64,000 nucleotides of DNA. It comes from Escherichia coli (GTDB lineage Bacteria > Pseudomonadota > Gammaproteobacteria > Enterobacterales > Enterobacteriaceae). The stretch lies in assembly GCF_041248615.1 (NCBI RefSeq), contig NZ_CP158426.1; one strand, written 5' to 3'. The notes beneath the pieces are model-generated. The model did no database searches, was not told where the DNA came from, and saw nothing but the letters and a program-made list of their open reading frames with translations. Each line of letters starts with the position of its first letter. Within the stretch, counting starts at the first letter, position 1. A program made the translations under genes and the position numbers. Of this stretch, positions 59,068 through 60,559 are shown piece after piece.

Positions 59068-59137
59068 GCAAGAGTAGGCTGGATAAGACGCGCCATGAAC
59101 TGCACCCCAAATGTTGGACATAATCTGACATCTGAAG

Positions 59138-59668
59138 GTGCAGTTTATGAAACATTCATTTGAAGTAAAACTTGCCGCTGTAAATCATTACCTGGCTGGT
59201 CAGGCAGGCATCATTTCTACGGCAAAACTCTTTCAACTTTCTCACACCAGCCTCTCACACTGGATTAATCTTTTTCTTCTTCACGGTCCTCGGGCACTGG
59301 ATTGCAGACACAAGCGTAGCTATTCTCCTGAAGATAAACTTTGCGTGGTTCTTTATGCTCTCGGGCATTCTGAGTCTCTACCCCGGGTAGCTGCCCGGTT
59401 TAACATTCCCAGCCACAACACGGTTAAAAACTGGATAAAAGGCTACCGCAAATCTGGTAATGAGGCCTTTATCAGGCGCAGGAAGGAGAAAAGCATGACC
59501 CGTTCTGATGATACCCATGAAAACGAGGCAAACATGACGCCGGAAGAGATGAAGAATGAGCTGCGTTATCTTCGCGCAGAAAATGCATATCTGAAAGCCA
59601 TGCAGGAGCATCTCCTGGAAAAAAAGCGCCAGGAGCTGGAGAAAAAACGAAAGTCATCCGGAGCCTGA
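59138..59668 (+). CDS. IS3-family transposase OrfA (HTH DNA-binding subunit)
   Basis: 176 aa ...MKHSFEVKLAAVNHYLAGQAGIISTAKLFQLSHTSLSHWINLF... with C-terminal leucine-zipper-like region; ends just after the A6 slippery run. Confidence 0.85.
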   Translation: MQFMKHSFEVKLAAVNHYLAGQAGIISTAKLFQLSHTSLSHWINLFLLHGPRALDCRHKRSYSPEDKLCVVLYALGHSESLPRVAARFNIPSHNTVKNWIKGYRKSGNEAFIRRRKEKSMTRSDDTHENEANMTPEEMKNELRYLRAENAYLKAMQEHLLEKKRQELEKKRKSSGA

Positions 59669-60495
59669 GGTGCGGACACTGCCAGTCTGACCTGTTAAAG
59701 GCTGCAGGGCTGGCCAGAAGCACGCTGTACTACCAGCTGTCACTGCAGAAGGCTAAGGACAAGTATGCTGATGTGAAACAGCTCATAGCCTCCATCTTCC
59801 ATGAACACCGGGGATGTTATGGGTACCGGCGGATCCATTGTGAGCTTCAGAAAAGAGGTCTTAAGTTCAGTGGCAAAACGGTGCGAAAACTGATGCAACA
59901 GCTCGGCCTGAAGTCTCCTGTGCGCCTGAAGAAATACCGGTCTTACCGGGGAAATATGGGACTCGCTGCAGAAAATATCCTTCAGCGACAGTTCAAAGCG
60001 GAAGCTCCCTGTGAGAAATGGGTGACAGATATCACCGAATTCAGGGCTGGCGGACAAAAACTGTACCTGTCCCCGATACTTGATTTGTTTAACGGGGAAA
60101 TCGTGGCGTGGGAAACGGCCTGCAGGCCTACAGAGGAGCTGGTGAAGCGGATGTTAAATAAGGGGCTGGAAAGCCTTGCTGAAGGGGAGAAACCGCTGCT
60201 CCACAGTGATCAAGGATGGCATTACCGGATAAAAAGTTATCAGTCCGCCCTGGCGGACAGAGGGTTAGTGCAGAGCATGTCGCGCAAGGGCAACTGCCTT
60301 GATAATGCGGTAATGGAGAACTTCTTTGGTCACCTGAAAGAAGAAATGTACTATCGCCGGGACTACAGAAATGTAGAAGAGCTGGAAAATGCCGTTAACG
60401 AATACATAACTTACTGGAATCAAAAAAGAATAAAACTCAGTCTTGGGGGACTCAGTCCGGTAGAATACCGGACTGAGCATCAAAAAGCCGGTTAA
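59645..60495 (+). CDS. IS3-family transposase OrfB (DDE integrase domain; expressed as OrfAB by -1 frameshift)
   Basis: -1 frame is open from the slippery site (start coordinate approximate): ...LLKAAGLARSTLYYQLSLQKAKDKYADVKQLIASIFHEHRGCYGYRRI..., which parallels the IS150 InsK N-terminus as I recall it; track ORF 59773..60495 is the downstream part; DDE-type catalytic region present. Confidence 0.8.
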
Positions 60496-60559
60496 CTGAA
60501 ACTGTCCAGGTTTTGGGGTTCAGTTCAGCCAGCGTCGCATCCGGCATTTTTTTCACCAA

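What the first reader, a model, noticed from the sequence alone, without database searches (positions are those of the whole stretch)
59096..60527. Intact IS3-family (IS150-group) element inserted between mobB and the rrn operon terminator
The element has 25-bp terminal inverted repeats with 4 mismatches (21/25 identical), a candidate 4-bp target duplication (GCCA), and orfA/orfB arranged for -1 programmed frameshifting at an A-run. All hallmarks are intact, so it is probably active. It lies about 35 bp beyond the rrn terminator hairpin and about 30 bp beyond the mobB stop, so it could influence read-through from either. The protein sequences resemble IS150 InsJ/InsK as I recall them, but only at family level, so it may be a distinct IS.
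Basis: partly seen in the sequence, partly recalled or inferred. Interest (0 to 1): 0.45.

Follow-up and report, generated by a model that had tools for sequence, protein, structure and literature searches.

The report
IS1397 inserted in a REP palindrome
This is an intact copy of IS1397, a well-known Escherichia coli insertion sequence, sitting in the loop of a small repetitive palindrome (REP/PU) between mobB and the rrnA ribosomal RNA operon, which is this element's known target, so it is real but ordinary.

Summary
A 1,432-bp element lies at 59096-60527 with 25-bp terminal inverted repeats (21/25). A comparison with empty sites confirms the 4-bp GCCA target duplication. orfA and orfB are intact and overlap in the -1 frame at A_AAA_AAG.

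It is not a distinct IS. It is 100% identical to a copy at the same locus in E. coli NRZ14408. It is 99-100% identical to many of the full-length copies found in 1,707 of 5,426 complete E. coli genomes; every listed copy at 99% or above is named "IS3-like element IS1397 family transposase" in RefSeq.

The flanks are the two halves of one REP/palindromic unit (PU), and the element sits in its loop, which is the published hallmark of IS1397. Eight other copies sampled from seven loci are all in PU loops with 3-4 bp duplications.

This PU is empty in 5,281 genomes and was hit independently at least three times: same orientation with GCCA, same orientation with CCA, and opposite orientation in 128 genomes.

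A strong RNA hairpin pairs the left inverted repeat with the orfA ribosome-binding site and start codon. It should silence read-through from mobB.

Verdict: already known, low interest.

The parts
58540..59067 (+). mobB, the upstream neighbour, with its stop codon TAA at 59065-59067.
   Evidence: ORF list. The same gene is annotated at the identical locus in NZ_LT599825.1.
59074..59091 (.). Left half of the split REP/palindromic unit (GTAGGCTGGATAAGACGC). It starts 6 nt after the mobB stop codon.
   Evidence: The empty site in PCN033 and K-12 reads GTAGGCTGGATAAGACGC-GCCA-GCGTCGCATCCGGCA. The repeat finder extends the inverted repeat into the flanks: 43 nt at 74% complementarity.
59092..59095 (.). 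Left copy of the target-site duplication (GCCA), which is the loop of the PU.
59096..60527 (+). IS1397, a complete 1,432-bp copy.
   Evidence: 100% identical to NZ_LT599825.1 5182641-5184072, which lies at the same locus. It differs by 1 nt (G59203) from the allele encoding WP_100190663.1, the protein annotated in 7 of the 8 sampled copies.
59096..59120 (+). Left terminal inverted repeat (IRL), starting 5'-TG.
   Evidence: 21 of 25 positions match IRR. The first 15 nt are invariant in 9 copies.
59094..59149 (+). RNA hairpin that pairs the IRL region (59094-59106) with the Shine-Dalgarno sequence and AUG of orfA (59137-59149). It can form only in transcripts that enter from outside the element.
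   Evidence: Inverted repeat I9 is 13 nt at 92% complementarity. The fold is -28.5 kcal/mol with z = -5.5, and 0 of 200 shuffles fold as well. The same region without the IRL arm folds at -5.7 kcal/mol with z = -0.3.
59147..59668 (+). orfA (173 aa), with two helix-turn-helix domains and a C-terminal region. It is the presumed regulator and forms the N-terminal part of the transposase.
   Evidence: Translation. Pfam HTH_28 at residues 8-57 and 64-113. 27% identity to IS150 InsJ.
59620..59626 (+). Slippery heptamer A_AAA_AAG for -1 programmed frameshifting, in phase with orfA. An AGGAG sequence lies 12 nt upstream (59603-59607).
   Evidence: Sequence and frames. RefSeq annotates the identical CDS as a two-piece join labelled 'programmed frameshift'.
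59626..60495 (+). orfB part of the OrfAB transposase. The DDE catalytic residues are D295 (60028-60030), D355 (60208-60210) and E391 (60316-60318), with spacing 60 and 36.
   Evidence: Pfam rve, rve_2 and HTH_21. NF033516. 51% identity to IS150 InsK.
60451..60477 (+). Perfect 12-bp inverted repeat with a 3-nt loop, inside the 3' end of orfB. Its function is unknown.
   Evidence: Inverted repeat I15 is 100% complementary. The fold has z = -3.3.
60503..60527 (+). Right terminal inverted repeat (IRR), ending CA-3'.
   Evidence: The last 15 nt are invariant in 9 copies.
60528..60531 (.). Right copy of the target-site duplication (GCCA).
60532..60546 (.). Right half of the split REP/palindromic unit (GCGTCGCATCCGGCA).
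60561..60593 (-). rrnA intrinsic terminator hairpin followed by a U-run.
   Evidence: The fold is -24.6 kcal/mol with z = -4.0.
60604..60719 (-). 5S rRNA (rrfA), the downstream and convergent neighbour.
   Evidence: Rfam RF00001, 93.2 bits.

Best explanation
The element is a full-length, apparently functional copy of IS1397 (IS3 family, IS150 group).

Expression and transposition. A -1 ribosomal frameshift at A_AAA_AAG fuses OrfA, the DNA-binding part with two HTH domains, to OrfB, the DDE catalytic core, giving the 449-aa OrfAB transposase. OrfA alone is the likely regulator. By analogy with other IS3-family elements, it moves by copy-out/paste-in through a circular intermediate. That step is inferred, not shown here.

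Target. The transposase directs integration into the loop of E. coli REP/palindromic units and duplicates 3-4 bp of the loop. Here it landed in the single PU between the mobB stop codon and the rrnA terminator. It duplicated GCCA and separated the two PU arms by 1.4 kb.

Age and recurrence. The insertion is recent and lineage-specific. This PU is empty in about 97% of complete E. coli genomes, and other IS1397 variants have hit it independently.

Read-through. Transcripts reading in from mobB carry the IRL, which pairs with the orfA ribosome-binding site and start codon. They should therefore be poorly translated. This is inferred from the predicted fold. Any read-through of the rrnA terminator would be antisense to the transposase gene.
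For: Identity:
- The element is 100% identical over 1,432 bp to the same locus in NZ_LT599825.1.
- Full-length copies occur in 1,707 of 5,426 complete genomes, and every listed copy at 99% identity or above is annotated 'IS3-like element IS1397 family transposase, programmed frameshift'.

Intactness:
- No stops occur in OrfA or OrfAB, the DDE residues are present, and the copy differs by 1 nt from the allele encoding WP_100190663.1, the protein annotated in 7 of the 8 sampled copies.

Family:
- NF033516 scores 387 bits; Pfam finds rve and the HTH domains.
- OrfB identity is 51% to IS150, 32% to IS3 and 22% to IS2.

Target:
- The empty site is a canonical PU with one GCCA.
- Eight other copies at seven loci are all flanked by PU halves, with 3-4 bp duplications in the loop.
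- The CFT073 copy described in PMC1525189, supplement 13, is also in a REP loop.
- The literature states that IS1397 inserts specifically into REP/PUs and that the transposase sets the specificity (PMC1525189; PMC3184786).

Recency and recurrence at this PU:
- Empty in 5,281 genomes.
- Occupied in the same orientation in 7 genomes.
- Occupied in the opposite orientation at the same position with the same GCCA in 128 genomes, by an IS differing at 22 nt.
- Strain ECNB21-M121 has the same orientation but a 3-bp CCA duplication.

Read-through protection:
- The IRL/RBS hairpin folds at -28.5 kcal/mol with z = -5.5.

Frameshifting in the IS3 family:
- PMC5009743.
Against: - I could not align the element to the ISfinder type sequence of IS1397, because it is not held. 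Identity to the type element rests on the RefSeq naming and on the shared, highly unusual target specificity.
- This copy has Q at OrfA residue 19 (G59203). The other alleles examined here have H19. The residue lies in the first HTH, and its effect on activity is unknown.
- No promoter-like site was found by the simple consensus scan of 58900-60750.
- Support for a structure downstream of the slippery site that would stimulate frameshifting is only modest (z = -2.4).
- Frameshifting, transposition and any effect on the neighbouring genes are inferred, not measured.
Confidence: 0.96

Rival explanations
1. It is a new IS of the IS150 group that resembles known elements only at family level.
For: Identity to IS150 itself is only 27% for OrfA and 51% for OrfB.
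Against: The element is 100% identical to a copy at the same locus in E. coli NRZ14408. Full-length copies occur in 1,707 complete E. coli genomes, and every listed copy at 99% identity or above is named IS1397 family in RefSeq. Its PU-loop target is the published signature of IS1397.
Confidence: 0.02
2. It is an immobile, decaying relic, and the flanking GCCA is only part of the local palindrome rather than a duplication.
For: The flanks are themselves palindromic, so short flanking repeats could arise by chance. This copy carries a private substitution in the first HTH (H19 to Q19).
Against: Empty sites contain a single GCCA. Both inverted repeats, both reading frames, the DDE triad and the slippery site are intact. 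The matching genome has about 9-12 places with IS1397 sequence. Insertion sites differ between strains. IS1397 was shown experimentally to transpose in K-12 (Clement et al. 1999, cited).
Confidence: 0.03
3. The insertion has a regulatory consequence for its neighbours. Splitting a REP that starts 6 nt after the mobB stop codon could change mobAB mRNA stability or translation, and placing 1.4 kb behind the rrnA terminator could change read-through.
For: The geometry is as stated. REPs are reported to stabilise mRNA and fine-tune expression (PMC1525189 background). From memory, and not checked here, REPs within about 15 nt of a stop codon are reported to lower translation through ribosome stalling.
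Against: There are no expression data. The rrnA terminator hairpin and U-run are untouched. The same PU is occupied in either orientation in 135 genomes without any sign that orientation matters. That pattern fits a neutral insertion into a permissive intergenic site.
Confidence: 0.15

Closest known systems
IS1397 (IS3 family, IS150 group; E. coli natural isolates; Bachellier, Clement, Wilde and co-workers)
   Same: The same element. It is 100% identical to an annotated copy at the same locus and 99.8-99.9% identical to other listed copies named IS1397 in RefSeq. It has the same two-ORF frameshift organisation and the same insertion into the loop of REP/palindromic units with a 3-4 bp duplication.
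   Different: There is one private nucleotide, G59203, giving Q19 where the other alleles examined have H19 in OrfA. The insertion site is rare: the mobB/rrfA PU is occupied in this orientation in 7 of 5,426 genomes.
ISKpn1 (Klebsiella pneumoniae)
   Same: It is described as an IS3-family relative that also targets palindromic units, with the specificity determined by the transposase (titles and text cited in PMC1525189).
   Different: It is specific for the Klebsiella type of PU. Its sequence was not compared here.
IS150 (E. coli K-12 insJ/insK)
   Same: Same group architecture: a 173-aa OrfA with two HTH domains, -1 frameshifting, a DDE OrfB, terminal TG...CA repeats, and a similar size (1,443 bp against 1,432 bp).
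   Different: Identity is only 27% for OrfA and 51% for OrfB. No REP specificity is known for IS150.
IS621 (IS110 family)
   Same: It also inserts specifically into E. coli REP sequences.
   Different: It belongs to an unrelated transposase family with a different mechanism. It inserts at the 3' side of the REP, outside the inverted repeat, and not in the loop.

Membership tests
IS3 family | A DDE (rve/integrase-core) transposase that matches the family profile above its curated threshold. | tested here: met
   NF033516 scores 387 bits against a cut-off of 160. Pfam rve has E = 7e-21, with rve_2 and HTH_21 also found. The catalytic residues are D295, D355 and E391, with spacing 60 and 36.
IS3 family | Two partly overlapping ORFs, with orfB in the -1 frame and a slippery A_AAA_AAG motif that produces an OrfAB fusion. 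| tested here: met
   The frames and the in-phase heptamer at 59620-59626 are confirmed. RefSeq annotates a programmed frameshift. Actual frameshifting was not measured.
IS3 family | Imperfect terminal inverted repeats that begin 5'-TG and end CA-3'. | tested here: met
   The 25-bp repeats match at 21 of 25 positions, from TGAAC... to ...GTTCA.
IS3 family | A target-site duplication of 3-4 bp. | tested here: met
   GCCA here, verified against empty sites. The eight other copies have 3-4 bp duplications.
IS3 family | Copy-out/paste-in transposition through a circular intermediate. | not testable with these tools
   This needs PCR for IRR-IRL circle junctions or a transposition assay.
IS150 group of the IS3 family | OrfB is closer to IS150 than to representatives of other groups, and OrfA is long (about 170 aa) with two HTH domains. 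| tested here: met
   OrfB identity is 51% to IS150, 32% to IS3 and 22% to IS2. OrfA has 173 aa, is 27% identical to InsJ over its length, and has two HTH_28 hits. It shows no significant similarity (E = 4.4) to the 99-aa IS3 InsE. Only three groups were compared; IS51 and IS407 were not tested.
IS1397 | Nucleotide identity of at least 95% to the ISfinder type sequence. | not testable with these tools
   The type sequence is not held, and the primary papers could not be opened.
IS1397 | Near-identity to elements that a curated annotation source names IS1397. | tested here: met
   The element is 100% identical to the copy in NZ_LT599825.1 and 99.8-99.9% identical to the other 29 best-listed copies, all named 'IS3-like element IS1397 family transposase'. 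Across the ranking, listed full-length copies at 99% identity or above all carry that name, while 2 of 3 listed below 99% are named only 'IS3 family transposase'.
IS1397 | Insertion inside E. coli REP/palindromic units, in the central loop. | tested here: met
   The empty site is a PU and the insertion lies between its arms. All 8 other sampled copies are the same. The published CFT073 example matches. The specificity is stated in PMC1525189 and PMC3184786.

The most novel reading that the evidence does not exclude
The single PU between mobB and rrnA may be a recurrent IS1397 landing pad. It has been hit independently at least three times, in both orientations and with 3-bp or 4-bp duplications. 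Destroying this REP, which starts only 6 nt after the mobB stop codon, may measurably change mobAB expression or 3'-end processing. The private Q19 change in the first HTH of OrfA may alter the activity of this lineage's copies.
Probability: 0.15. Interest if true: 0.25.

Novelty: already known. Interest (0 to 1): 0.12.

Why it matters
It matters little beyond correct annotation. The element should be labelled IS1397 and the flanks labelled as a split REP/PU. Its presence is a useful lineage marker, because this site is occupied in this orientation in only 7 of 5,426 complete genomes. The population data give a clean natural illustration of the PU-loop specificity of IS1397 and of repeated, independent use of one PU. 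That confirms established work and does not open a new question.

Tried and rejected
- Primary papers. I tried to open the IS1397 papers (PMC94167, PMC95333, PMC169884). None is held, so the target specificity is cited through Tobes & Pareja 2006 and Delihas 2011 and was tested directly on nine copies.
- Promoters. The consensus scan of 58900-60750 found no sigma-70-like site, so I make no claim about an internal or outward-reading promoter.
- rrn terminator. The same scan also missed the rrn terminator, which I confirmed by folding instead.
- Frameshift stimulator. I looked for a structure downstream of the slippery site. A stem starting 3 nt downstream is predicted, but only at z = -2.4, so I treat it as weak.
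- Other copies. I checked the window for further IS1397 copies or fragments and found none.
- GCCA as coincidence. I considered that GCCA could be a chance feature of the palindrome. The empty-site comparison rejects this.
- A single ancestral event. I considered that all occupied mobB/rrfA sites descend from one insertion. The opposite orientation, a 3-bp against a 4-bp duplication, and 19-22 nt differences between the resident IS copies reject this. The window and MEI003 share both orientation and duplication, so they could still be one event followed by gene conversion.

Full report
**1. The observation**

- The terminal 25 bp are inverted repeats that match at 21 of 25 positions: TGAACTGCACCCCAAATGTTGGACA against the reverse complement TGAACTGAACCCCAAAACCTGGACA.
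- GCCA flanks the element on both sides, at 59092-59095 and 60528-60531.
- orfA (59147-59668, 173 aa) is intact.
- The -1 frame is open from at least 59593 to the stop at 60493-60495.
- The heptamer A_AAA_AAG at 59620-59626 is in phase with orfA. A -1 slip there gives a 449-aa OrfAB with no internal stop.
- The mobB stop codon (59065-59067) lies 28 bp upstream of the element.
- The rrn terminator hairpin (60561-60593, - strand; -24.6 kcal/mol, z = -4.0) lies 33 bp beyond the right end.
- It is followed by 5S rRNA at 60604-60719 and 23S rRNA at 60815-63719.
- The window contains no other copy.

**2. What it is**

A megablast search against 5,426 complete E. coli genomes shows the following.
- The element is 100% identical over all 1,432 bp to NZ_LT599825.1 (isolate NRZ14408) at the same mobB-rrf locus.
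- It is 99.8-99.9% identical to the other 29 best-listed copies.
- Full-length copies occur in 1,707 genomes.
- RefSeq annotates all 30 best-listed copies as "IS3-like element IS1397 family transposase", a two-piece CDS marked "programmed frameshift".
- Across the whole ranking, listed full-length copies run from 100% down to 97.3% identity. Two of the three listed below 99% are named only "IS3 family transposase".

The RefSeq CDS at the identical NRZ14408 locus maps to 59147-60495 in window coordinates, which matches my reading.

The window copy differs from the allele encoding WP_100190663.1 by one nucleotide. That protein is annotated in 7 of the 8 copies sampled below. G59203 gives Q19 in the first HTH of OrfA where the other allele has H19.

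Protein-level checks agree with this identification.
- NCBIfam NF033516 (IS3 family transposase) scores 387 bits against a cut-off of 160.
- Pfam finds two HTH_28 domains in OrfA, and HTH_21, rve and rve_2 in OrfB.
- The catalytic triad is D295, D355 and E391, with spacing 60 and 36.

Compared with the K-12 reference elements:

| Element | OrfB identity | OrfA comparison |
|---|---|---|
| IS150 (InsK / InsJ) | 51% | 27%; both are 173 aa |
| IS3 (InsF / InsE) | 32% | no significant similarity (E = 4.4) to the 99-aa InsE |
| IS2 (InsD) | 22% | not compared |

The suggestion that this may be a distinct IS is not.

**3.

The two flanks are the halves of one REP/palindromic unit (PU).
- Removing the element and one GCCA gives GTAGGCTGGATAAGACGC-GCCA-GCGTCGCATCCGGCA. 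On the other strand this reads TGCCGGATGCGACGC-TGGC-GCGTCTTATCCAGCCTAC.
- That is exactly the sequence of the unoccupied site in strain PCN033 and in K-12 MG1655.
- This confirms the 4-bp duplication and places the insertion in the loop of the palindrome.
- It also explains why repeat finder extended the terminal inverted repeat to 43 nt, into the flanks.

IS1397 is the textbook REP-targeting IS.
- The transposase determines the specificity.
- Both statements come from Clement 1999 and Wilde 2001/2003, as cited and summarised in PMC1525189 and PMC3184786.
- The CFT073 copy shown in supplement 13 of PMC1525189 also splits a REP at its centre.

I tested this directly. Eight further copies taken from eight genomes lie at seven different loci:
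- apaH/folA
- msrQ (seen in two genomes)
- yphB/yphA
- ybaL
- cysE/trmL
- caiF/caiE
- ygcQ

All are flanked by GCCGGATGCG.CG... on one side and ...CG.CTTATCCGGC.TAC on the other. Their loop duplications are 3 bp (ACC, AGC, AAT, TGG) or 4 bp (TCAC, TGGC, TTGA). The IS occurs in either orientation relative to the PU.

**4. Population picture of this site**

| State of the mobB/rrfA PU | Genomes (of 5,426) |
|---|---|
| Empty | 5,281 |
| Occupied, same orientation as the window | 7 |
| Occupied, opposite orientation, same position, same GCCA | 128 |

- The resident IS in a representative of the opposite-orientation group (strain 7/2) differs from the window copy at 22 positions.
- Within the same-orientation group, strain ECNB21-M121 has only a 3-bp duplication (CCA) and an IS that differs at 22 positions.
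- Strain MEI003 has GCCA but an IS that differs at 19 positions.
- At least three independent insertions have therefore used this one loop.
- With a few hundred PUs per genome (209-290 REPs in the E. coli genomes listed in PMC1525189) and thousands of lineages sampled, that is what a strict target specificity predicts. It is not surprising.

**5. How it most likely works**

Shown here:
- The coding capacity is intact.
- The slippery site is in phase.
- The element ends are conserved.
- The insertion lies in a PU loop with a 3-4 bp duplication.
- The site varies between strains.

Inferred from established IS3-family knowledge (PMC5009743):
- OrfA alone acts as the regulator.
- OrfAB, made by -1 frameshifting, is the transposase.
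- The level of frameshifting sets the level of transposition.
- Transposition by copy-out/paste-in through a circle is assumed by analogy.

An AGGAG sequence lies 12 nt upstream of the heptamer. A modest stem-loop starts 3 nt downstream (z = -2.4). Both could stimulate frameshifting, but the evidence is weak.

- RNA covering 59085-59160 folds into a strong hairpin (-28.5 kcal/mol, z = -5.5; 0 of 200 shuffles fold as well).
- In it, the IRL (59094-59106) pairs with the Shine-Dalgarno sequence and AUG of orfA (59137-59149).
- Without the IRL arm the region has no significant structure.
- This is the classical device by which insertion sequences avoid activation by transcription entering from outside.
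- Read-through from mobB should therefore yield little transposase.
- Read-through of the rrnA terminator would be antisense to the transposase gene.
- Whether splitting the REP, which starts 6 nt after the mobB stop codon, changes mobAB expression was not tested.

**6. Comparison with what is known, and verdict**

The element is IS1397 itself, in its canonical target.
- Membership in the IS3 family and the IS150 group was tested and met on every sequence-level criterion.
- Identity to the ISfinder type sequence could not be tested directly, because that sequence is not held.
- The annotated near-identical copies and the distinctive target make the assignment secure.
- Novelty: already known.
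- Interest: low. The finding is a correct and careful observation of an ordinary mobile element.
- Its only modest value is as a lineage marker and as a clean natural example of PU-loop targeting.

Noticed in passing
L013:1501-1565 (E. coli K-12 MG1655, between yhhI and yhhJ); corresponds to window 60463-60527: K-12 and roughly 1,780 other complete genomes that lack full IS1397 copies carry one unannotated 65-bp relic of the IS1397 right end (IS positions 1368-1432, 95% identity). It is followed directly by the 3' half of a PU (TAAACGCCTTATCCGGCCTA) and preceded by the end of the ISEc1/H-repeat transposase gene yhhI. It looks like an ancient PU insertion that was later truncated by the H-repeat element.
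   Followed up: partly
window 60451-60477: A perfect 12-bp inverted repeat with a 3-nt loop (CTCAGTCCGGTA-GAA-TACCGGACTGAG) lies inside the 3' end of orfB. The K-12 relic begins exactly at the first loop nucleotide (60463). The function is unknown, and the coincidence is unexplained.
   Followed up: partly
window 60573-60576 compared with L003:633-636 and L002:5133-5136: The 4-nt loop of the rrnA terminator hairpin is flipped between strains. It is GTCA in the window, K-12 and ECNB21-M121, and TGAC in PCN033, 7/2 and MEI003, while the stems are identical. This is a loop-inversion polymorphism.
   Followed up: no
L014:338-505 (K-12) compared with window 60594-60603: K-12 has about 170 extra bp between rrfA and the hairpin terminator. 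The extra sequence is an rrnB-T1-like terminator plus a repeated 5S 3'-end fragment (TGCCTGGCAGTT). In the window, 5S rRNA is followed directly by the hairpin terminator.
   Followed up: no
window 5347, 36529 and 46399: Three further canonical PUs in the window are unoccupied.
   Followed up: no
NZ_AP046539.1 (strain SK0189) and one other record: Some strains show IS1397 expansions. SK0189 has 33 places, and one record reaches the 40-piece reporting limit, against a median of 1 place per genome.
   Followed up: no
window 63727-63835 and 63906-63978 (- strand): Rfam finds StyR-44 (123 bits) just upstream of the 23S rRNA and a tRNA in the 16S-23S spacer. Both are ordinary features of an rrn operon.
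   Followed up: no
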